IMG/VR virus record: IMGVR_UViG_2526164596_000013
DNA: 50,979 nucleotides
Strand: one strand, 5' to 3'
Origin: a virus
Lineage: Duplodnaviria; Heunggongvirae; Uroviricota; Caudoviricetes
The position numbers and the translations under genes were made by a program. Each line of letters opens with the position of its first letter. The stretch's first letter is position 1. The notes beneath the pieces were generated by a model. It worked only from the letters and a program-made list of their open reading frames with translations. It was not told where the DNA came from and made no database searches. Below, piece by piece: positions 621 to 41,745 of the stretch.

Positions 621-1194
621 TGTGGGGCGACTGGCCACTCAATATCCGCTGCTACTGTTGTATCAACACGGTTCAGCAACACCCGATACTTTTTCCAGGC
701 TTCCAGCAATGAGGTTTCTTCCTCCGTTGCGATTTCCAGATCTACAGCATCCTGAAGTGGCGCAATATGCTCACTGGCTACCTGCATCAGGCTGTTTTTG
801 TTTCTTCCGCCTCCCGGATCCGGAACAGTTTTTCTGCTTCTGCATCTTTCACCCAGGCTGTGCCGTTCCACTTCTGAAACTCCCCTTCCGGGGATAACCA
901 AGTGGCATTTTCCGGTAACGGACCGAGTTCAGAAATAAATAACGCGTCGCCGGAAGCCACGTCATAAACCGTTTTACCCCGATGATCTTCAACGAGATGC
1001 CACGATGCCTCATCACTGTTGAAAACAGCCACGAAGCCTGCCGGAATATCTGGCGGTGCAATATCGGTACTGTTTGCTGGCAGACCTGTATGAGGCGGAA
1101 TATATGCGTCACCTTCACCAATAAATTCATTAGTTCCGGCCAGCAGATTATAAATTTTTATGGTCCGTGGTTGTTCACTCATTCTGAATGCCAT
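617..1194 (-). pseudogene. tfa: tail fibre assembly protein Tfa, split into two frames by a 1-nt shortfall in a homopolymer (T5 at 795-799 on plus strand)
   Basis: ORF 787-1194 encodes the Tfa N-terminal part ([24 protein letters not shown]...) and ORF 617-901 in another frame encodes the C-terminal part (...[15 protein letters not shown]...[14 protein letters not shown]); join requires one extra A in the acaaaaac run. Confidence 0.7.
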
Positions 1195-4100
1195 TATGCA
1201 AGCCTCACAATATAGTTAAATGCGATGTTTTTGACGGTGTTTTCCGCGTTACCAGCAGCGTTAACGGTGATGGTATGTCCATGTGAACCAATCGCAACGG
1301 AGTGCGTATGAGCACCAATACCGACAGTATGTGCGTGTGCACCTGCGCTTGCAGCAGTACCCGATACAGAGTGCGTATGAGCGCCTGCAGAAGAAGTGTT
1401 AACACTGTATTTAGAATAATCAGGTGATCCACTTCCCGGAGCACCACTGGAACCACCTGAAACAAATGTCATCGAATGGGTATGTGCACCGGCTGAAGCA
1501 GCCGTACCGCTAACACTATGGGTATGCGCACCAGTGTTATTCGTGGATTTAGTGCCGTAATCAAACGACGATGTGGTTTTCGTCCCCAAATCCGTACTGG
1601 ATGCGCTGGCGCTGTGGGTGTGCGATTTAATGCCGTCCTGTTCCTGAGACAATACGGCACGACCACTGGCGGGCTTGCCCTTAATCGTCCAGCCACGCAT
1701 ATCAGGGATCACGCCTGACGGATAAGCAACTGCAAGTTTCGGGTAAGTAGATTTGTCAAAAGTCTGCCCCTGCATCAGGGCATAACCAGACGGAACGGTA
1801 TCTGATGGCCACGGGATTGGTGCACCGACTGGATAAAACTCTGCAGGAGGATGAGCCGAGGTGTAAAGCTGCGCCCACGGCGACCAGTTTGCGTCGGTCG
1901 TATCCCGTCGTGAACGAATAAATGCCGGAGCATGAGCACCGCTTGTACCACTCCAGCCGATGAGTAACTCACCTTCGCCAACGGCTGTCATCCCTTTCAG
2001 GTGAATGATATTTCCATACGCTGTTGGATATCCGTTGTTATACACCTCGTATAACTCAAGACCTGTTGCCCCCTGTGTATTGTCTGTCAGCGCGGTTACC
2101 CGACCTTTTGAAGACAGATTAACTGATGATACTGCTGTTCCACCTGACGGTAACGCCCCGATCTCTGATGCCGTTGGCTTATTTCTGGAGTTATAGTCCC
2201 TTCGCCAGCCAGGTGAATAATCTGTTCCGTGATTAATATAGGTAAACTGGGCGTTAGTTGTTCCACCACCAGTGGAGGTGGTCGGTGTGGTAATGCGGAT
2301 CGTCATCGCTGACTTTATCCCCATTACTTCAATGACAGCTCCGGCGAGATGAATATTACCGCAGCCAGTATCAGTAATGATTTTATTATTGCCATAAGAC
2401 CAGGAACCCTTGCACATCCAGTATGGATGGTTAAATGCTCCCTGAGAATCCAGCCACTCGATAAACTGTGCAGTCGTCCAGTTTCCTGTTGTTGTGCTTA
2501 CTGACCCACCGAAGGCACGGCAGGCACCAATATTTTTCGTAAAGGTGTCTTTGCCAGGGATATCCGCACCGTTCTGATCTTTCTGCAGACGTTTCTCAGC
2601 ATTGTCATTGGCTGCTTTTACTGCCTTTGGCGTTGCCGCCAGCGTTTCAGACGTGCTGTTGGTCGCGCTGCTTAGCTGGATTATCCCTTTCTGTGCTGTC
2701 GTTGCATCCTGTGCGGTGTATTTCCCGTTAGCCAGGTCATACGCGGCCTTAACGGCTTTTGGCGTTGCCGCCAGCGTTTCAGACGTACTGTTGGTCGCAC
2801 TGCTGAGCTGTACTATCCCCTTTTTCGTCGTGCTCGCATCCTCAAGCGCCACGGCGGATGCAATATCCTCTGCCCGTTTTGCCGCTGTCTCAGCGCGCGT
2901 TGCTGCAGATTCCGCCGTACTTTTGCTCTGAGCTGCCGCCGTCGCACTGCCAGCTGCCTCTGTCGCCTTCGTGGATGCCGTCGTGGCGCTACCCTTCGCT
3001 GCTGACGCCTGTCTGGTCGCCTCATCTTTTGAAGCAGACGCAGATGATGCCGATGACGACGCCGAACTGGCTGACGATGCGGCAGCCGTTTTTGAGGATT
3101 CTGCGCTGGTTTCCGACGCTTTCGCGTTCGTTTCGGATGTCTTCGCTGCGGAAGCAGACCTCGCTGCTGCGCTGGCCTGTTCAGTGGCTTCGCCAGCCTT
3201 CGTTGTGGCTGTTGAAGCAGACGATGCGGCGCTTTCTGCCGATTTTCCGGCGGCGGTGGCACTGGCTGAGGCCTGCCCGGCACTTGTTGACGCTGCACTG
3301 GCAGACGACGCAGCCGCTGTTTTTGAGCCTGCCGCAGCCGAGGCGCTCTGTCCCGCTGCCGTTTCAGAAGACCTGGCGTTCGTCTCTGACGTTTTTGCCG
3401 CCTTCGCGGAATTTCCTGCCGCTGTTGCCGAGGAAGCTGCGCTACTGGCGCTCGAGGATGCGTTCGTTTCTGATGATTTTGCCGCCTCTTTTGAAGCCGC
3501 CGCATCCCGGGCTGAGGTGGCAGCTTCTGACGCTTTCGTAGTCGCGGTGGATGCAGAAGTGGCTGCTGATTGTTGTGACGCTGCAGCATTCGTTTCTGAC
3601 GTTTTCGCGGCACTGGCACTGGTAGCTGCCGCGCTTTTTGAGGACTCTGCAGCGGCAGCACTTTTTGATGCTTCAGTGGCCTTTGTTGATGCCGTTCCTG
3701 CGCTGGAAGTCGCTGACTGAGCCGACGACGCGGCCTGTCCGGCTGACGTGCTGGCTGCGCGTGCTGAGCCTGCAGCATCAGTCGCATGGGTTGCCGCCTC
3801 ACGGGCTGATGTGCTGGCATCACTGGCTGACTTCTTCGCGGCTGCCGTGTTCTGTGCCACCACGGACGCGTTACGCGCCACCTCTTCCACCATCAGCTCA
3901 AAACGGCGCAGTGCCTCCGGACGGGCATCATCCTCCGTCATGGCACCGAGAAAATCATTCAGCGTACCGGGTCGGGAATCTTCATACACTGTGATGGTCC
4001 CGGCATGTGACGGTGGGAATCCTTCCACCAACAGAATAACGCTGTACTGACCGTACTCAACGTCCATACTGTAACGCCCGGCTTCATCCGGATTTTCAGA

Positions 4101-4223
4101 TGCCAGCGTGTTCACCACCACCGTGGTACTGTTACGTTTTGCTTTCAGCTGGATTGTGCAGTTCTGTACCGGTTTTCCTGTGCCGTCTTTCAGTACACCT
4201 GAAATTTTTACTGCCATATTCAC
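1194..4223 (-). CDS. stf: side tail fibre protein Stf (lambda-like, expanded Ala/Ser/Thr-rich repeat region)
   Basis: 1009-aa ORF; N-terminus [26 protein letters not shown] and C-terminus ...[38 protein letters not shown] match lambda Stf as recalled; overlaps tfa start. Confidence 0.85.
2627..2820 (-). repeat. tandem direct duplication (132-bp period) inside stf
   Basis: near-identical 62-bp cores at 2627-2688 and 2759-2820 (ttggcgttgccgccagcgtttcagacgt[g/a]ctgttggtcgc...), encoding KGI[VI][23 protein letters not shown] twice. Confidence 0.6.
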
Positions 4224-4227
4224 CCCA

Positions 4228-4256
4228 CAAAAAAGCCCGCCTGAACCGGCGGGCTG
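4228..4256 (-). terminator. rho-independent terminator downstream of lom
   Basis: on minus strand hairpin gcccgcc/ggcgggc followed by TTTTTT (plus-strand aaaaaa at 4229-4234). Confidence 0.5.
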
Positions 4257-4281
4257 TCATAACACTGTGTTACCTGGCTAA

Positions 4282-4881
4282 TCAGAATTTATAACCAACA
4301 CCCACGATGAATCCGTCAGTGCGCCAGTCACCACTGCCGGAGCCTTCATAAGCGACATCAATGGCCACGGATTCGGTCGGGTTAAACTGCACGCCAGCTC
4401 CCCACGCCAGAGACGTGTTGCTGTGGCGACCGTCATCACTTCCGGTCAGCACATCGTGCTTTTTCCCCTTGTTGTCAGTTACGCGGAGATAATCCCCGGA
4501 GAAAGTCGACACACGGCTGTAAGCCACACCCGCCATCGCATACGCGCTGAACCATTCATTCACGCGTACAGACGGCCCCGCCATCACGCTGAACCAGCGG
4601 TTACGCACGGAATCTTCATGCCAGCGGGTATCGCTGTAGTGCGTTTTTTGCTCATCCTCAGCATTGGCATAACTGAAGGACGTAATCAGCCCCAGCGCGT
4701 CCGTAAACTCATAACGGTATTTCACGTTAATCCCGTTCAGATTATCGCTGCCGGGAGCGTTCGTACGGGCATGAAGATACCCCGCGCTCAGTGTGGACTG
4801 ATGTTCAGACGCCCATGCAGGCGCACCGGATACGGACAGACAGATGGCTGCGGACAAAATGGCTGCACAAACTTTACGCAT
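4282..4881 (-). CDS. lom: outer-membrane protein Lom (Ail/Lom family)
   Basis: 199-aa ORF with signal peptide MRKVCAAILSAAICLSVSGAPAWA and beta-barrel-like C-terminus ending GYKF; position between J and stf as in lambda. Confidence 0.85.
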   Translation of the reverse strand: MRKVCAAILSAAICLSVSGAPAWASEHQSTLSAGYLHARTNAPGSDNLNGINVKYRYEFTDALGLITSFSYANAEDEQKTHYSDTRWHEDSVRNRWFSVMAGPSVRVNEWFSAYAMAGVAYSRVSTFSGDYLRVTDNKGKKHDVLTGSDDGRHSNTSLAWGAGVQFNPTESVAIDVAYEGSGSGDWRTDGFIVGVGYKF

Positions 4882-30445: not shown

Positions 30446-30892
30446 GAATCCTCCCGGCCGGGATAATATTGTGAGTAAAATGAGGAGCGGGCTGAAGTCC
30501 GGAAGTTACAGGACAATGGCAGAAGAGAGACAATAGCCCGCAATACGAAAAAGGCCGCGCTATTGCGCAGAGTGATTACTGTCGGATATTATTCGCCAGC
30601 TGAAATATTACTTCACGTTTTGTTGTTTATTCCTTGCCGCCCGCGTCTCCCTGCGCGGGATTTTTTTGTCCATAAGAAAGCCCCTCCGGAGAGGGCTGGA
30701 GAGTGGCGCTATGTGCCATTGCATGGTGCCGGGTGCCTCCCGGTGAATTCAGTACCAGCACCTGAATCCGCGATTATCCCATATACCTACTCGCTGATTG
30801 CCCCTCCGCACAGGGGGATTCACCATGCCAGTTTCTTTTAACAAACTCCCCGCAAAACAGACAACTGTCAACCGTCTGAATTGTGAGACATT

Positions 30893-30920
30893 TAAAAAAA
30901 AGGCCCGCAAAAGCGAGCCA
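30893..30920 (-). terminator. rho-independent terminator immediately 3' of tRNA-Arg(UCU)
   Basis: minus strand hairpin ggctcgc-tttt-gcgggcc followed by TTTTTTTT. Confidence 0.5.
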
Positions 30921-30933
30921 GGGAAAATAAGTG

Positions 30934-31010
30934 TGGCGCGTTGTACTGGATTCGAACCAGTGACCGATTGCTTAGAAGGCAATTGCTCTGTCCGGCTGAG
31001 CTAACAACGC
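30934..31010 (-). tRNA. argO: tRNA-Arg (anticodon UCU)
   Basis: rc gives GCGTTGTTAGCTCAGCCGGACAGAGCAATTGCCTTCTAAGCAATCGGTCACTGGTTCGAATCCAGTACAACGCGCCA; cloverleaf with 7-bp acceptor, anticodon loop CTTCTAA, encoded CCA. Confidence 0.85.
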
Positions 31011-31023
31011 AGGGTACAGATAA

Positions 31024-31100
31024 TGGACCGCCATCGAGGACTCGAACCCCGCGCAACCAGCTTCGAAGGCTGGCGCTCTATCCTGATGAGCTAATGGCGG
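31024..31100 (-). tRNA. argN: tRNA-Arg (anticodon UCG)
   Basis: rc gives CCGCCATTAGCTCATCAGGATAGAGCGCCAGCCTTCGAAGCTGGTTGCGCGGGGTTCGAGTCCTCGATGGCGGTCCA; anticodon loop CTTCGAA; acceptor stem CCGCCAT/ATGGCGG; encoded CCA. Confidence 0.75.
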
Positions 31101-31107
31101 TATGTGA

Positions 31108-31179
31108 TGGTGGCCCTTGCTGGATTTGAACCAGCGACCTGGCGATTATGAGTCGCTCTCACCACTGAGCTAAAGGGCC
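31108..31179 (-). tRNA. ileZ: tRNA-like gene with CAU anticodon (Ile2/Met-type), atypically short
   Basis: rc gives GGCCCTTTAGCTCAGTGGTGAGAGCGACTCATAATCGCCAGGTCGCTGGTTCAAATCCAGCAAGGGCCACCA (72 nt); good acceptor and T arms, loop CTCATAA, but the anticodon stem 5' side appears about 4 nt short. Confidence 0.55.
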
Positions 31180-38426: not shown

Positions 38427-38617
38427 GGACGCACCTCCGCCGTAGTTACGTATTTAACCGGGCTACCTTTCATTGAGATGGTTTCACACATCTCTGCCGC
38501 TTTCAGTTCCGCTGTTTTTCTGGATTTATAGCGACGGTGCCAGACAGATACATCCGTGCGAACTGATACATCGTTTCTGTATTCCGTAGTGGAGATGATG
38601 ATTTCGTAACTAATCAT
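38423..38617 (-). CDS. hypothetical protein (64 aa), translationally coupled
   Basis: start overlaps stop of 38614-39468 ORF; part of a chain of 4-nt-overlapping genes. Confidence 0.4.
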   Translation of the reverse strand: MISYEIIISTTEYRNDVSVRTDVSVWHRRYKSRKTAELKAAEMCETISMKGSPVKYVTTAEVRP

Positions 38618-39468
38618 GGGCGAACCTCCTTGTCAGAACCATTCAGCCTGGAATCAACAAGTGCAGCGCCAAAAACAGCATCACCAACACGGTCGTACAG
38701 TTTGCTAGCCAGCGGAGATTCAACGGCCTTAAGCATTGGATAAAGCTGGCTTGTCCAGATTTGATGGATTTCACGCAAATGCAGGTATACGCCTCTGGCG
38801 TTTCGTGCGACAGCTGACATATCAACCGCGTCAGCACCAGATAAATTCTTCTCCATCTGGTTAAAGGCGTTGATGTATGCCTCTTTGAACTGGGCAGCAC
38901 GTTTACCAGTGAAGCCCATGGCAAGAAACGCAAAACCGTCGCGGGTGATTTGGTAACAAGGGAGTTTGCGGCCTGATGCGTCGGTGTATTCACTTAACAC
39001 AAAATTGTGTTCAGTAAATTCAGCGGAACATTCGAGGTTTCTAATTCTATCTAAAACCCGCTCATGCCGTTTAGTAAAGTAATTAGCTACTGCAAGAGAT
39101 GTGGTGACAACGCGACCATTGATAATCGTGATTTCAGGGCGAGATTGGGTTGGGAGAGTAGTCATGGTGACAGCCCCTATGTTGAATTCAATGAACTCAC
39201 CACCAAGGCTTTCCACGACCATATAGGTGGTGAGACGTACAGGGGTGGAAATACCGGTCAACATAGAACCCGGCCCAACCGAAGTTGGCCCTGCACGCCC
39301 CACCATAATTTGGGCGTAACGATGCTCATGACACGAAAAAACCGCATGAGCGCGGTTGTGCTCTATATTGAATTTCGGGTTTCCACGCCCGGCACCCGCT
39401 TTATAAGGTGCAGAGACAGTGTAACGTCCCGAAATTGCAGAATCAATATTTGGTCTTGAAATGATCAT
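38614..39468 (-). CDS. phage regulatory protein, Rha-family domain in C-terminal half
   Basis: segment VVTTSLAVANYFTKRHERVLDRIRNLE...FVLSEYTDASGRKLPCYQITRDGFAFLAMGFTGKRAAQFKEAYINAF resembles the Rha phage-regulator domain as recalled; N-terminal 110 aa unassigned. Confidence 0.5.
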   Translation of the reverse strand: MIISRPNIDSAISGRYTVSAPYKAGAGRGNPKFNIEHNRAHAVFSCHEHRYAQIMVGRAGPTSVGPGSMLTGISTPVRLTTYMVVESLGGEFIEFNIGAVTMTTLPTQSRPEITIINGRVVTTSLAVANYFTKRHERVLDRIRNLECSAEFTEHNFVLSEYTDASGRKLPCYQITRDGFAFLAMGFTGKRAAQFKEAYINAFNQMEKNLSGADAVDMSAVARNARGVYLHLREIHQIWTSQLYPMLKAVESPLASKLYDRVGDAVFGAALVDSRLNGSDKEVRP

Positions 39469-39576: not shown

Positions 39577-40290
39577 TCATCGCTGCCAACCAATAACCTG
39601 AAATAACCCCATTTTCGGGTGATACCAGCGAGTCCCTCGCGGTTCTGCTTCCTCCATAACCCGATAAAAAGCAGCCATAAACGGTTCCACAGCAACAATT
39701 GCGCGACGTGACAACAATCCGTCCGGCGTCATGAACTCATGGGTGTCTGTAGGAATCTGATAGGCGTTCACCAGATTGCGGCATTTATCATCTGACAAAC
39801 CGGTTTTTGCTTTCAGTTGGCGATATCCGGCATAGCCCTCACGAATAGTGCCCTTTTTAATTTGCTCGACTGTTTCAGCAACGTGGCTGACTTTTTCTTC
39901 CACCTGAGTGATCCGTTTCTGTTGGCGAACGGCTTCAAGAGCCATCGCGGCAACCATTTCGATTTCGCTCATTGGCTTACGGATCTGTTCTTCCAGTTCG
40001 CGCCAGCGATCTACCAGGCGAGCAGTGAATTCAGGGCAGAGCTGTGCGACGACAATGATGCTGTCGCGCTTACCTTGTTCTCCTTCAAACAGGTAATGCT
40101 CATATTGAACTTTAAAACCTAAGTTATTGATTTTCTCGGAAACAGCCATTGGCGGTTTCCGGATGATGTTTTTAGCAACCAGGCGTTCGATACTACGTTT
40201 AACATCTGAGTGCTGACTACCCACCAGCTCTGCGATCTCAACGCTGGTCATGGATGCTTTGTCGTTAAAAATTGCGGTGTTCACTGCCAT
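39577..40290 (-). CDS. phage regulatory / antirepressor-like protein (Rha/Ant-type N-terminal motif)
   Basis: MTSVEIAELVGSQHSDVKRSIERL... motif; start at ATG 40290 preferred over 40326 (SD taaggag directly adjacent, so start uncertain). Confidence 0.45.
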   Translation of the reverse strand: MAVNTAIFNDKASMTSVEIAELVGSQHSDVKRSIERLVAKNIIRKPPMAVSEKINNLGFKVQYEHYLFEGEQGKRDSIIVVAQLCPEFTARLVDRWRELEEQIRKPMSEIEMVAAMALEAVRQQKRITQVEEKVSHVAETVEQIKKGTIREGYAGYRQLKAKTGLSDDKCRNLVNAYQIPTDTHEFMTPDGLLSRRAIVAVEPFMAAFYRVMEEAEPRGTRWYHPKMGLFQVIGWQR

Positions 40291-40403
40291 CTCCTTACGG
40301 ATAAATTCTTTTAAGATTCCGCACATTCGTACTTATTGGTGCCGAACCTTCCTTCAGTTATCCTTTTGATCCCTATAAACAAAAGAACCAAAGGAGGTTC
40401 GAC

Positions 40404-40697
40404 ATGAAAGTTCAGGCCGTTGGTTTATTCTGGTTTCGCGATGCGATTCAGTATCATGAGCTCAAAAATATTTTTACTGATGCTGATGTGCTCTCCGACA
40501 GTTACACCGAGTGGAAACACGACGCTGAAAAATTGATTAAGCGTGTCGAAAGAGGCGGGCAACGAGTTATTAAAGTTGAAGCGGATACAGCCGAGTTCAT
40601 CACCTGGTGTACAAGCGAAGGCATTGGAATCAATGCCGAAGGTAGAATGCAGTTCGCATCCTTTAAGGCTTACCAACAACTTCTCAGCGAACGCTAA
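40404..40697 (+). CDS. hypothetical protein (97 aa) between the cro-like gene and the Rha-like gene, opposite strand
   Basis: strong SD AAGGAGG 7 nt before ATG 40404; G-rich first codon positions; fully overlapped by an antisense ORF (40425-40757), so strand assignment is not certain. Confidence 0.45.
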   Translation: MKVQAVGLFWFRDAIQYHELKNIFTDADVLSDSYTEWKHDAEKLIKRVERGGQRVIKVEADTAEFITWCTSEGIGINAEGRMQFASFKAYQQLLSER

Positions 40698-40767
40698 TGT
40701 GATCGGGGCAATCGAAATGGTTGTCCCATCGTATTTAATAGTTATTTTTTCGCTCATATCACCACCA

Positions 40768-40977
40768 TCACTTCCCATCTTCCGTGTGCGCTAGGCTTGG
40801 GTGTGTATATGGAATGCTCGGATCCAAATGACAAAGAATGGCAACATCCTCCGGAACACCTCGCGTTTTCCACTTTCCAACACCTTGACTGCCACGAGGC
40901 CTTCCTTTCTTTGGGAACCTGCGACCAATAGCGGCATTGGTTTTAAATTGAATTTTTAATATTTCATAAAGGGTCAT
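40768..40977 (-). CDS. cro: Cro-like regulator (DicC/YdaS-type HTH)
   Basis: 69-aa ORF divergent from cI across a 111-bp operator region; FKTNAAIG...VGKWKTRGVPEDVAIL resembles the YdaS/DicC Cro-like family as recalled; no obvious SD. Confidence 0.5.
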   Translation of the reverse strand: MTLYEILKIQFKTNAAIGRRFPKKGRPRGSQGVGKWKTRGVPEDVAILCHLDPSIPYTHPSLAHTEDGK

Positions 40978-41088: not shown

Positions 41089-41745
41089 ATGAAGTCTTTA
41101 GGTGAACGTCTCATCAACGCACGGCAAAAAGCTGGGTTAACACAAGATGCGTTGGCTAAAAAAGCTGGGATCACCAGAGTTGCAATCAGTAAAGCCGAGC
41201 AAGGCCTTACAAAAAGTTTCAACGGTGACACCCTTTTTAAAGTTGCAGCTGCACTGCGGTGTTCACCGCAGTGGCTTCAGAACGGAGATGAAAAAGATAA
41301 GCATTGGGAAAATAATGTTAAGAGCTGCCCACAGAGAGACACAGCACACTCTTACCCTGTAATTAACTGGGTTCAGGCAGGATTATTCGCAACTTCTGGT
41401 GATGACTACAACATGTATGATCAGGATAATTGGAGGCATTCTGTAAAATACGCTGGTGAGAGGGGGTTCTGGCTGGAAGTGCACGGAGACTCAATGACTT
41501 CGCCCGTAGGAATAACATTTCCTGAAGGAATGTCGATCCTTGTCAACCCAGATAAAGAAGTTTTTTCAGGGTGTTACGTCATCGCCAGAAAAAAATCCAC
41601 CAATGAAGCAACATTCAAAAAATATATTTCTGACATGGGAAAGGCGTTTCTAAAGCCCCTTAATCCACAATATCCAATCATAGAAATGGACAATGATTGC
41701 GAAATAGTAGGTGTTGTGGTTGATGCCAGGTGGGATATTTTCTGA
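41089..41745 (+). CDS. cI: prophage repressor cI (N-terminal HTH, C-terminal S24 LexA-like autopeptidase)
   Basis: ATG 41089 with GGAGAAG SD; HTH LTQDALAKKAGITRVAISKAEQG; C-terminal GDSM Ser and downstream Lys (ATFKK) of S24 peptidases. Confidence 0.85.
   Translation: MKSLGERLINARQKAGLTQDALAKKAGITRVAISKAEQGLTKSFNGDTLFKVAAALRCSPQWLQNGDEKDKHWENNVKSCPQRDTAHSYPVINWVQAGLFATSGDDYNMYDQDNWRHSVKYAGERGFWLEVHGDSMTSPVGITFPEGMSILVNPDKEVFSGCYVIARKKSTNEATFKKYISDMGKAFLKPLNPQYPIIEMDNDCEIVGVVVDARWDIF

What the first reader, a model, noticed from the sequence alone, without database searches (positions are those of the whole stretch)
40404..40697. Strong-RBS 97-aa gene on the opposite strand inside the early-right regulatory block
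Between the Cro-like gene and the Rha-like gene lies an ORF on the plus strand with AAGGAGG at ideal spacing and protein-like composition, fully overlapped by a minus-strand ORF in the cII/YdaT-equivalent position. Only one can be real. If the plus-strand gene is genuine it is an independently transcribed moron in the immunity region.
Basis: seen in the sequence. Interest (0 to 1): 0.45.

Follow-up and report, generated by a model that had tools for sequence, protein, structure and literature searches.

The report
Real reverse-oriented accessory gene beside cro
The plus-strand 97-codon reading frame is a genuine, conserved protein gene of unknown function. It sits backwards between the prophage's cro-like gene and its early genes as a self-contained cassette, and the overlapping minus-strand frame is almost certainly just its antisense shadow.

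Summary
ORF 40404-40697 (+) has AAGGAGG six bases before its ATG, and 273 of its 294 bases are overlapped by a minus-strand ORF (40425-40778).

The plus frame is the gene:
- RefSeq annotates it as a hypothetical protein.
- It matches PHROG family phrog_4753 over its full length.
- Its relatives differ mostly at third codon positions (dN/dS 0.08).
- An exhaustive search finds 953 family representatives.
- The predicted fold is confident (pLDDT 94.8).

The minus frame is the codon-aligned antisense frame. Its lack of stop codons is what chance predicts, its product is far less conserved than the plus product on the same DNA, and it has no family and no CII or YdaT similarity.

The gene lies in a conserved cassette: a 5' element with a weak promoter-like site and the ribosome-binding site (RBS), the ORF, and a hairpin that pairs only on the plus strand. 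In E. coli this cassette is 97-100% identical next to unrelated cro/cI alleles. The same 5' element and ATG drive a BssS-family gene in other prophages. This is moron-like architecture.

Distant relatives (29-37% identity) occupy the same reversed position in other mobile elements. The fold resembles only SO3848, an Aca2-like regulator, but lacks the helix-turn-helix (HTH) DNA-binding domain. Function and expression remain untested.

The parts
40404..40697 (+). ORF97: real protein-coding gene, 97 aa, 11.3 kDa, pI 5.7. RefSeq WP_000867910.1 'hypothetical protein'; member of phrog_4753.
   Evidence: PGAP annotation in a 100% identical E. coli O111:H21 record. phrog_4753 positions 1-97 of 97, E 3e-49. 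Variable sites 30/13/76 by codon position and dN/dS 0.079. 953 representatives at E<=1e-3. AlphaFold2 pLDDT 94.8.
40391..40397 (+). Shine-Dalgarno sequence AAGGAGG, 6 nt before the ATG.
   Evidence: Sequence. GGAG.TTCG.CATG is invariant in 8 diverged sequences. The same RBS and ATG serve a BssS-family gene in L059.
40336..40364 (+). Candidate weak sigma-70 promoter: TTGGTG (40336-40341), 17-nt spacer, TATCCT (40359-40364). This is an inference.
   Evidence: Conserved across lineages whose upstream genes are unrelated. It scores only 7/12, below the threshold of the promoter scan, which found no plus-strand site here.
40340..40404 (.). Long inverted repeat (arms 40340-40354 and 40390-40404) that encloses the -10-like hexamer and pairs with the RBS and start codon. 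The structure is stronger in minus-strand (early-operon) RNA.
   Evidence: repeat I3. RNA folds: -22.4 kcal/mol, z -4.2 on the plus strand; -29.3 kcal/mol, z -5.4 on the minus strand. Similar in L037 and L049, absent in Pectobacterium L035. The consensus fold has little covariation.
40705..40727 (+). GC-rich hairpin 7 nt after the stop codon (GGGGCAATC-GAAAT-GGTTGTCCC) followed by a T-rich tail. Probable terminator or 3' stabiliser of the ORF97 transcript.
   Evidence: Flagged as terminator-like. All 9 pairs are kept in 7 distinct sequences, and 4 pairs vary on one side through G.U, which works only on the plus strand. -15.6 kcal/mol on the plus strand against -7.0 on the minus strand. The T tail is imperfect.
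40425..40778 (-). Antisense 'shadow' ORF (117 aa; 110 aa from the conserved ATG at 40757). Not a conserved protein gene in this clade.
   Evidence: It is the codon-aligned antisense frame, so stops arise only from sense TTA, CTA or TCA codons. The observed number of stops is as expected (P 0.06-0.66). Its first codon position is the most variable. Amino-acid identity is 43-76% against 76-94% for the plus product. No family match. Only 5 database clusters, 70-194 aa long.
40768..40977 (-). Context: Cro-like first gene of the early (minus-strand) operon, convergent with ORF97.
   Evidence: In related loci the gene at this position matches P22_Cro or YdaS.
39577..40284 (-). Context: Rha-family regulator, next gene of the early operon, divergent from ORF97.
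   Evidence: Pfam PF09669 and phrog_63. PGAP coordinates.
41089..41745 (+). Context: CI-type repressor (HTH_3 plus Peptidase_S24), same orientation as ORF97.

Best explanation
ORF97 is a genuine gene in a self-contained, reverse-oriented accessory ('moron-type') cassette. The cassette sits where the immunity module (cI-cro) meets the rest of the early operon.

Shown here:
- The plus frame is under strong purifying selection and belongs to a large family of roughly 100-aa proteins with no Pfam, NCBIfam or PADLOC match in the copies searched here.
- The cassette (5' element, ORF, hairpin) is conserved as a unit next to unrelated cro/cI alleles and unrelated downstream genes.
- The same 5' element, RBS and ATG are fused to a different gene (BssS family) in other prophages.
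- The hairpin after the stop pairs only on the plus strand.

Inferred:
- A weak promoter (TTGGTG-17 nt-TATCCT) inside the 5' element produces a monocistronic mRNA of about 360 nt that ends at the hairpin before cro.
- Because the unit points against the early rightward promoter PR, it is free to be expressed while CI keeps PR silent (lysogeny). After induction it is shut off by convergent PR transcription and antisense RNA.
- The product is a small soluble alpha/beta protein. Its only clear structural relative is SO3848, an Aca2/YdiL-like regulator, and ORF97 appears to correspond to that protein's non-HTH C-terminal domain. In Aca2 that domain packs against the HTH domain of the partner subunit. 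ORF97 therefore most likely acts as a binding module, on an HTH protein or a small ligand, rather than as an enzyme or a DNA binder.
- Because the cassette travels with many different cro/cI alleles, the target is more likely a host or incoming-phage component than this phage's own switch proteins.
For: Gene reality:
- PGAP annotation and phrog_4753 full length.
- 17 close clusters, nearly all of 97 aa, from E. coli, Salmonella, Klebsiella, Serratia and Pectobacterium.
- Variable sites 30/13/76 by codon position; dN/dS 0.079.
- 953 representatives, with W10, D26, W37, G52, W68, C69 and R81 conserved.
- pLDDT 94.8.

Cassette:
- Upstream spacer, ORF and downstream spacer are 97-100% identical in E. 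coli loci. Rha drops to 79%, and cro/cI are replaced by alleles that do not match.
- The full cassette is in 75 of 5426 complete E. coli genomes. The 73-nt 5' element alone occurs in 13 more. It is joined at the same ATG to a BssS-family gene that has a canonical terminator in L059, and to a third, unannotated ORF in L060.
- Plus-strand-specific hairpin.

Position:
- A reversed singleton after the first regulator of an opposite-strand operon is also seen in Klebsiella, Pectobacterium and Phytobacter prophages.
- It recurs at 29-37% identity in L047, EKP1, L050 and L057.

Fold:
- The secondary-structure order beta-alpha-alpha-alpha-beta-alpha-alpha matches the description of the SO3848 C-terminal domain in PMC8434428.
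Against: - No expression data were available.
- The promoter-like site scores only 7/12 and was not reported by the scan.
- The T tract after the hairpin is imperfect, and in the EKP1-type allele the hairpin has no T tail.
- Base composition does not differ from the flanks (GC 0.449 against 0.43-0.48), unlike many morons.
- The same reversed position recurs in very distant relatives, which suggests a tie to the genetic switch rather than free-floating cargo.
- Two E. coli alleles carry nonsense mutations, so the gene is dispensable in at least some prophages.
Confidence: 0.6

Rival explanations
1. Switch component rather than cargo. The cassette is an integral, reverse-oriented part of the lysis-lysogeny circuit. 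Its transcription, in the cI direction, would oppose PR and cover cro in antisense (like lambda PRE or oop) if the hairpin leaks. Alternatively, its protein would modulate Cro, CI or Rha through their HTH domains.
For: The position is the same (convergent with the first regulator of the early operon) at 29-37% protein identity in unrelated elements: L047 with a YdaS-like gene 2 nt away, L050 with a 186-CII-like (CP76) gene, EKP1, and L057. The orientation matches cI. The promoter is weak, as activator-dependent promoters are. In Aca2 the related domain contacts an HTH domain. In Bcep176 the homologue gp17 lies in a plus-strand cluster with an HTH protein, divergent from a CII-like gene.
Against: The identical cassette sits next to unrelated cro/cI alleles. 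At the same site and ATG it can be replaced by a BssS-family gene or another ORF. Many prophages that share other parts of this region lack it: 351 genomes match some part of the 1.6-kb region, but only 75 have the full cassette. A conserved hairpin sits between the ORF and cro. Most family members are lone chromosomal genes with no phage context.
Confidence: 0.2
2. Both strands are used. ORF97 is real, and the minus frame is also translated. It would be either a spacer ORF that keeps ribosomes on the PR transcript between cro and the next gene (preventing polarity and allowing translational coupling), or a true antisense gene in some clades.
For: Every lineage has an SD-like motif and a start codon in this frame just after the cro stop. 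In L003 and L034-L037 the frame runs to a stop that overlaps or immediately precedes (TGA-ATG in L003) the ATG of the next minus-strand gene. The 48 nt beyond the plus stop vary 12/5/9 by minus codon position 3/2/1 (minimum changes 19/7/11). In the EKP1-type clade the differences fall 12/2/4 by plus codon position, the minus product is 91% identical against 80% for the plus product, and indels in the minus-only N-terminus are in frame. Gene callers and the EKP1 depositors called the minus ORF.
Against: In the window's clade, plus-frame synonymous sites are saturated (dS 1.17), so minus-frame first codon positions vary freely. The minus product diverges to 43% identity. The absence of stops is as expected by chance. 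At plus-synonymous differences the minus-frame replacements are not significantly conservative (P 0.055-0.17). In the window the frame stops about 100 nt before Rha, so coupling is not possible there. The pattern downstream of the stop is also explained by the hairpin and its T-rich tail. The EKP1-type signal rests on one long branch with 18-21 substitutions.
Confidence: 0.12
3. The minus-strand ORF is the real gene (a CII/YdaT-type regulator after cro), and the plus ORF is its shadow.
For: Its position after cro is the classical cII position. The frame is open in all relatives. It is annotated that way in the EKP1 record.
Against: Its first codon position is the most variable (76 of 97 sites). 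It has no CII, YdaT or any other family match. It gives only 5 database clusters of inconsistent length. The plus protein belongs to a 953-representative family that also occurs as a lone chromosomal gene, and it folds confidently.
Confidence: 0.02

Closest known systems
phrog_4753 (PHROGs family, function unknown); RefSeq WP_000867910.1 'hypothetical protein'
   Same: Full-length profile match, positions 1-97 of 97, E 3e-49. All 60 diverse relatives tested also match it. The window's protein is annotated in a 100% identical E. coli record.
   Different: Nothing differs. This is the family, and it has no assigned function and no Pfam, NCBIfam or PADLOC model in the copies searched.
Phage morons (autonomous promoter-gene-terminator units expressed from prophages, such as lambda bor and lom); comparison drawn from general knowledge
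   Same: A compact unit with its own RBS, a conserved upstream element and a hairpin after the stop. It is sporadic among related prophages, and the cargo is replaceable at the same site.
   Different: It lies inside the early operon between cro and the next gene, on the opposite strand. Its base composition is not atypical. The position is kept in very distant relatives. Expression in lysogens has not been shown.
SO3848 of Shewanella oneidensis (PDB 2OX6), an Aca2/YdiL-like HTH regulator
Lambda PRE transcript and oop RNA (cI-direction transcription from downstream of cro); comparison drawn from general knowledge
   Same: The transcription unit lies downstream of cro, points toward cI, and is convergent with PR.
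   Different: It encodes a strongly conserved protein. A conserved hairpin lies before cro. No CII homologue or CII-type site was identified, and the cargo is exchangeable.
Prophage BssS-family gene (phrog_10846) at the same site in E. coli UMNF18-type prophages
   Same: The 5' element is identical (98.6% over 71-73 nt), as are the RBS, the ATG, the reversed orientation and the slot between a Rha gene and a cro-like gene.
   Different: The protein is unrelated and the terminator is canonical.

Membership tests
phrog_4753 | Full-length match to the family profile | tested here: met
   E 3e-49, 166 bits, residues 1-97 on profile positions 1-97 of 97. 60 of 60 relatives match.
The ~100-aa W-D-W-G-WC-R family defined here | Conserved W10, D26, W37, G52, W68, C69 and R81, length about 95-105 aa, beta-alpha-alpha-alpha-beta-alpha-alpha fold | tested here: met
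   Alignment A2, exhaustive search, structural model.
Moron (autonomous accessory cassette) | Own promoter | tested here: inconclusive
   The scan found no plus-strand sigma-70 site at its threshold of 9/12. A conserved TTGGTG-17 nt-TATCCT scores 7/12.
Moron (autonomous accessory cassette) | Own terminator | tested here: met
   Terminator-like site at 40705-40727. All 9 pairs are kept with plus-strand-only G.U changes. The plus-strand fold is twice as stable as the minus-strand fold. The T tail is imperfect.
Moron (autonomous accessory cassette) | Presence, absence or replacement among otherwise related phages | tested here: met
   75 of 5426 genomes carry the cassette. 13 more have the same 5' element, joined to other ORFs in the two examples inspected, L059 and L060. 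351 genomes share other parts of the region.
Moron (autonomous accessory cassette) | Base composition unlike the flanking phage genes | tested here: not met
   GC 0.449 against 0.484 (Rha), 0.457 (cro) and 0.434 (cI).
Moron (autonomous accessory cassette) | Expressed from the repressed prophage | not testable with these tools
   No transcriptome or proteome data were available. Literature searches for the accession numbers and the PHROG identifier found nothing.
Aca2 / YdiL / SO3848 regulators | N-terminal HTH DNA-binding domain | tested here: not met
   No HTH family match. The model starts with a beta strand at residue 5 and has no room for an HTH domain.
Aca2 / YdiL / SO3848 regulators | C-terminal alpha/beta domain with a two-stranded parallel sheet | tested here: inconclusive
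CII / YdaT-type regulator (tested for the minus ORF) | Sequence similarity to CII, YdaT or any regulator family | tested here: not met
   Pfam best hit DUF5003, E 0.18; PHROGs best hit E 0.017 to a family of unknown function; no NCBIfam or PADLOC match. Longer versions from L035, L037 and EKP1 have no PHROG match.
CII / YdaT-type regulator (tested for the minus ORF) | Purifying selection on the minus frame | tested here: not met
   The minus first codon position is the most variable. Amino-acid identity is 43-76% against 76-94% for the plus product. The test for conservative replacements gives P 0.055-0.17.
Lambda PRE-type establishment transcript | Transcript reads antisense through cro into cI, under CII control | not testable with these tools
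   The geometry fits, but a conserved hairpin lies before cro and no CII homologue is present between cro and Rha.

The most novel reading that the evidence does not exclude
The reversed cassette is not casual cargo. It is a widespread, previously unrecognised element at the cro / early-operon junction of temperate phages. Its HTH-less SO3848/Aca2-C-terminal-domain-like protein would dock onto an HTH regulator, and its transcription would oppose PR. The same DNA would also be read by ribosomes on the other strand: the minus frame is kept startable after cro and, in some lineages, runs exactly to the next gene's ATG. In the EKP1-type clade it shows a minus-coding substitution pattern.
Probability: 0.1. 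Interest if true: 0.7.

Novelty: new member of a known kind. Interest (0 to 1): 0.3.

Why it matters
For annotation, this settles which strand to call. The plus gene is correct in RefSeq, while at least one deposited phage genome (EKP1) and some automatic callers picked the shadow ORF.

For biology, it flags a large family of roughly 100-aa proteins (953 representatives at 50% identity) that has no Pfam, NCBIfam or PADLOC match in the copies searched. The family has a confident fold and one structural relative among regulators.

In temperate phages the family repeatedly occupies one unusual slot: backwards, directly after cro. That slot carries a portable expression element with exchangeable cargo. 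It is therefore a candidate place to look for lysogen-expressed functions such as exclusion, defence or host modulation, and this protein is the commonest occupant of the slot among the E. coli genomes searched here (75 genomes, against 13 with the element alone). None of this is surprising in kind, because reverse-oriented accessory genes in prophages are well known.

Tried and rejected
- **Minus ORF as a CII/YdaT-like gene.** Rejected: no family match, a non-coding substitution pattern, and only 5 database clusters.
- **Unusual stop-codon avoidance in the antisense frame.** Rejected: synonymous-codon randomisation expects 0.6-2.3 stops and 0-1 are observed, P 0.06-0.66.
- **Frameshift as evidence against the minus ORF.** I first took a 1-nt deletion that removes the minus ATG to mark a six-locus lineage. 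Re-checking showed it in one locus only (L025), so the argument was dropped.
- **Defence or toxin-antitoxin role.** PADLOC gave only a meaningless BrxC fragment (E 0.026). NCBIfam gave a Phd fragment at E 0.055, below its cut-off.
- **Fused domains as functional clues.** Longer family members carry only extra copies of the same domain or low-complexity linkers.
- **Conserved gene partner in chromosomal relatives.** None found. Rubrerythrin or ferritin lies upstream in two contigs, but the other neighbours are unrelated.
- **Sequence link to a solved structure.** None, even at E 10.
- **The 5' inverted repeat as an intrinsic terminator of the early transcript.** Only a 5-bp stem variant was flagged. 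The stem is broken in L037 and the T tract is lost in L034 and L037.
- **Searches that did not work or found little.** The afdb50 fold library was unavailable. Pattern searches with the diverse alignments failed for lack of conserved stretches. P0019 gave no viral loci. The EKP1-type allele is absent from the E. coli genomes and from other phage records.
- **Literature.** Nothing was found on the accession numbers or the PHROG identifier.

Full report
**1. What is there**

The window has an ORF at 40404-40697 (+), 97 aa. AAGGAGG lies at 40391-40397, six bases before the ATG.

On the other strand an ORF runs 40778-40425 (117 aa). It covers 273 of the 294 bases. It stops inside the plus ORF because the plus Leu8 codon is TTA.

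- a Rha-family gene to the left (minus strand; PF09669, phrog_63);
- a 69-aa gene to the right (minus strand; phrog_4749, no Pfam hit, Cro-like by position);
- beyond that, a divergent HTH_3 plus Peptidase_S24 repressor (plus strand).

The window is 100% identical over this region to a prophage of E. coli O111:H21 strain 15A. There PGAP annotates the plus ORF as hypothetical protein WP_000867910.1 and does not annotate the minus ORF.

**2. Which strand codes**

*Homologues.* The plus product matches phrog_4753 end to end (E 3e-49). The word-indexed search returned 17 clusters at 74-97% identity, nearly all of exactly 97 aa. They come from E. coli, Salmonella, Klebsiella, Serratia and Pectobacterium.

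*Substitution pattern.* I collected the DNA of 41 loci, which gave 16 distinct versions of the ORF. Variable sites fall 30/13/76 on plus codon positions 1/2/3. Nei-Gojobori dN/dS among seven diverged versions is 0.079 in the plus frame, with dS 1.17, which is saturated.

*The minus frame.* The minus ORF lies in the codon-aligned antisense frame. Its first codon position is the plus third position, so the minus first position is its most variable one. That is not a coding pattern. On the same DNA the plus products are 76-94% identical and the minus products 43-76%.

*Stop codons.* In this frame, stops arise only where the sense strand uses TTA, CTA or TCA. Randomising synonymous codons with local codon usage predicts 0.6-2.3 antisense stops per sequence, and 0-1 are observed (P 0.06-0.66). 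The open minus frame is therefore unremarkable.

*Other tests on the minus product.*
- It has no Pfam, NCBIfam, PADLOC or convincing PHROG match. Longer versions from other lineages also have none.
- The large protein database holds only 5 clusters for it, with lengths of 70, 110, 110, 145 and 194 aa.
- I asked whether plus-synonymous differences cause unusually conservative replacements in the minus frame. The trend was not significant (P 0.055-0.17), and transition bias was not modelled.
- Integrity does not discriminate between the frames. The plus ORF is intact in 31 of 33 E. coli loci (two independent nonsense alleles, W37* in L024 and E36* in L031). The minus start is intact in 31 of 33.

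*Conclusion.* In the window's clade the plus gene is real and the minus ORF is its shadow.

**3. The protein family**

An exhaustive HMMER search gave 953 representatives (50% identity clusters) at E<=1e-3. Most are 95-105 aa.

W10, D26, W37, G52, W68, C69 and R81 are invariant or nearly so in 60 diverse members. No member matches a Pfam or NCBIfam family, and all 60 match phrog_4753. Longer members carry two or three copies of the domain joined by coiled-coil-like linkers, and no other known domain. Where sources name the proteins, the names are 'hypothetical' or 'putative cytosolic protein', with one automatic 'RNase H fold nuclease' label.

With the 60-sequence alignment, AlphaFold2 gives pLDDT 94.8. 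The elements in order are: strand 5-10, helix 14-21, short helix 26-28, helix 34-50, strand 54-59, helix 62-72, helix 78-96.

Among predicted viral structures, only two uncharacterised proteins match.

**4. The cassette**

*5' element.* Upstream of the ATG, about 65 nt are conserved in lineages whose upstream genes are unrelated. The element contains:
- TTGGTG (40336-40341), a 17-nt spacer and TATCCT (40359-40364). This is a weak promoter-like pair (7/12) and falls below the scan's threshold.
- A long inverted repeat (40340-40354 / 40390-40404). It encloses the -10-like hexamer and pairs with the RBS and start codon.

As RNA the repeat folds well on both strands and better on the minus strand (z -4.2 and -5.4). 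The same holds in L037 and EKP1, but not in Pectobacterium. A transcript that starts after the -10-like hexamer would lack the left arm, which would leave the RBS free. This last point is an inference.

*3' hairpin.* Seven bases after the stop lies a 9-bp GC-rich hairpin (40705-40727). In seven distinct sequences all pairs are kept. Four pairs change on one side through G.U, which works only on the plus strand. The plus-strand RNA folds at -15.6 kcal/mol and the minus-strand RNA at -7.0. The tail is T-rich but imperfect.

*Conservation as a unit.* In E. coli loci the upstream spacer, ORF and downstream spacer are 97-100% identical. Rha falls to 79%, and cro, the operator region and cI are often replaced by unrelated alleles.

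*Distribution and cargo exchange.* The full cassette is in 75 of 5426 complete E. coli genomes. Thirteen more genomes have only the first 73 nt, at 98.6% identity.
- In UMNF18-type prophages that element, with the same RBS and ATG, drives a BssS-family gene (phrog_10846, full length once an A-run frameshift in the record is allowed for). A canonical terminator follows it, and it occupies the same reversed slot between Rha and a cro-like gene.
- In ETEC1734 the element precedes an unannotated 151-aa ORF.

A portable expression element with exchangeable cargo is the signature of a moron site. Base composition, however, is not atypical.

**5. Position in other elements**

The gene is a reversed singleton, convergent with the first regulator of an opposite-strand early operon, in each of these:
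- Klebsiella, Pectobacterium and Phytobacter prophages with different cro-type and downstream genes;
- a GC-rich element at 32% identity, with a YdaS-like gene 2 nt away (L047);
- phage EKP1 at 34% identity;
- an element in which the convergent gene is a 186-CII-like CP76 protein, at 37% identity (L050);
- a small-gene operon at 29% identity (L057).

In Burkholderia phage Bcep176 the homologue gp17 instead lies in a same-strand cluster that includes an HTH protein. The abundant 101-aa subfamily consists of lone chromosomal genes with varied neighbours.

**6. How it most likely works**

I commit to an autonomous accessory cassette. A weak promoter in the 5' element would produce a monocistronic mRNA that ends at the hairpin. 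The unit would be expressed while CI keeps PR off and silenced by convergent PR transcription after induction. The product would be a small soluble binding module related to the non-HTH domain of SO3848-type regulators.

Steps shown here:
- the gene is real;
- the cassette is conserved as a unit;
- the cargo is exchangeable;
- the hairpin is plus-strand specific;
- the fold resembles SO3848.

Steps inferred:
- the promoter;
- the timing of expression;
- the mode of action.

The main rival is that the cassette is part of the lysis-lysogeny switch. The deep conservation of its position supports that reading. Its association with many different immunity alleles and its replaceability argue against it.

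**7. Loose ends**

Several observations are not explained by a plain shadow-ORF reading:
- Every lineage keeps an SD-like motif and a start codon in the minus frame just after the cro stop.
- In L003 and L034-L037 that frame runs to a stop that overlaps or immediately precedes the ATG of the next gene.
- The 48 nt beyond the plus stop vary 12/5/9 by minus codon position 3/2/1. The hairpin and its T-rich tail can also explain this.
- In the EKP1-type clade (plus protein still phrog_4753, E 1.7e-14), L049 and L063 differ 12/2/4 by plus codon position in the overlap. The minus product is more conserved than the plus product (91% against 80%), and indels in the minus-only N-terminus are in frame.

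The EKP1-type signal comes from a single long branch with about 20 substitutions, and a metagenome scan added only two more sequences. I therefore record it as unexplained rather than as evidence for dual coding. Shallow comparisons within E. coli give 7/2/8, with equal counts of synonymous changes in both frames. That is expected when slightly deleterious changes are still segregating.

**8. Verdict**

The gene is already annotated as hypothetical and sits in a PHROG of unknown function. As a kind of thing, a reverse-oriented accessory gene in a prophage, it is ordinary.

What is new is modest: the size of the uncharacterised family, its fold relationship to SO3848, the recurrent slot beside cro, and the portable 5' element.

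Noticed in passing
window 39223-39310 (-) and 39335-39411 (-): Rfam C4 antisense RNA (82.4 bits, gathering score 45) and isrK (61.6 bits, gathering score 50), plus a sub-threshold c4 target element, lie inside the 5' third of the 284-aa 'Rha family phage regulatory protein' CDS (38614-39468, as PGAP calls it). The first ~100 residues of that ORF look non-protein-like. The real start is probably the ATG at about 39165 (MTTLPTQ...), giving a P1-c4 / Gifsy isrK-type RNA-controlled antirepressor module.
   Followed up: partly
L059 (E. coli UMNF18) 2501-2821: The same 5' element, RBS and ATG as ORF97 drive a BssS-family gene (phrog_10846, full length). The record has an 8-A run that breaks the frame, and PGAP compensated with an upstream GTG start that reads through the regulatory element.
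   Followed up: partly
L060 (E. coli ETEC1734) 2569-3027 (+) and 2846-3238 (-): A third arrangement at this site. An unannotated 151-aa plus ORF starts at the conserved ATG and overlaps by about 180 nt the 3' end of an annotated minus gene (phrog_37051) that follows cro. A strong hairpin lies just after the plus stop. Which parts are real was not resolved.
   Followed up: partly
L049 (phage EKP1, OM284015) 4001-4396: The depositors annotated the minus ORF (4064-4396) and not the phrog_4753 homologue on the plus strand. The record is labelled an Elizabethkingia phage, yet this region shares gene content and a 24-nt identical stretch with Klebsiella prophage loci (L037, L040).
   Followed up: partly
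L049, L061-L067 (EKP1-type alleles): In this sister clade the substitutions fall 12/2/4 on plus codon positions in the overlap. The minus product (91% identity) is better conserved than the plus product (80%), and indels in the minus-only N-terminus are multiples of three. The signal comes from one long branch, so it is weak, but it is the opposite of the window's clade.
   Followed up: partly
L024 and L031 (E. coli viral contigs), ORF97 codons 37 and 36: Two independent nonsense alleles (W37*, E36*) in otherwise 97-99% identical cassettes, so the gene is dispensable in some prophages.
   Followed up: partly
L022, directly after the ORF97 stop codon: The conserved hairpin and spacer are replaced by unrelated DNA immediately after the stop codon (an insertion or a different junction). 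ORF97 itself is intact.
   Followed up: no
L042 3439-4306 and L044 3310-4324: In two unrelated chromosomal contigs the 101/107-aa family member lies directly downstream of a ferritin-like or rubrerythrin gene on the same strand. Other chromosomal members have different neighbours (UvrA, CMD, TctC).
   Followed up: no
P0018 (506 aa), P0041 (319 aa), P0025 (206 aa): Family members with two or three tandem copies of the domain separated by coiled-coil-like linkers (Holophagales metagenome-assembled genomes and others).
   Followed up: no
window 40278-40326 (-): The Rha start is ambiguous. At PGAP's ATG (40284) the AAGGAG motif abuts the start codon. The GTG at 40278 would have a 6-nt spacing. The longest ORF starts at 40326.
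   Followed up: no
window 30668-31179 (-) and 654-851 (-): The sRNA STnc100 sits next to a tRNA cluster (Arg-tct, Arg-tcg, Met-cat), and an IS009 RNA match lies near the window start. These are ordinary features of lambdoid prophages of this type.
   Followed up: no
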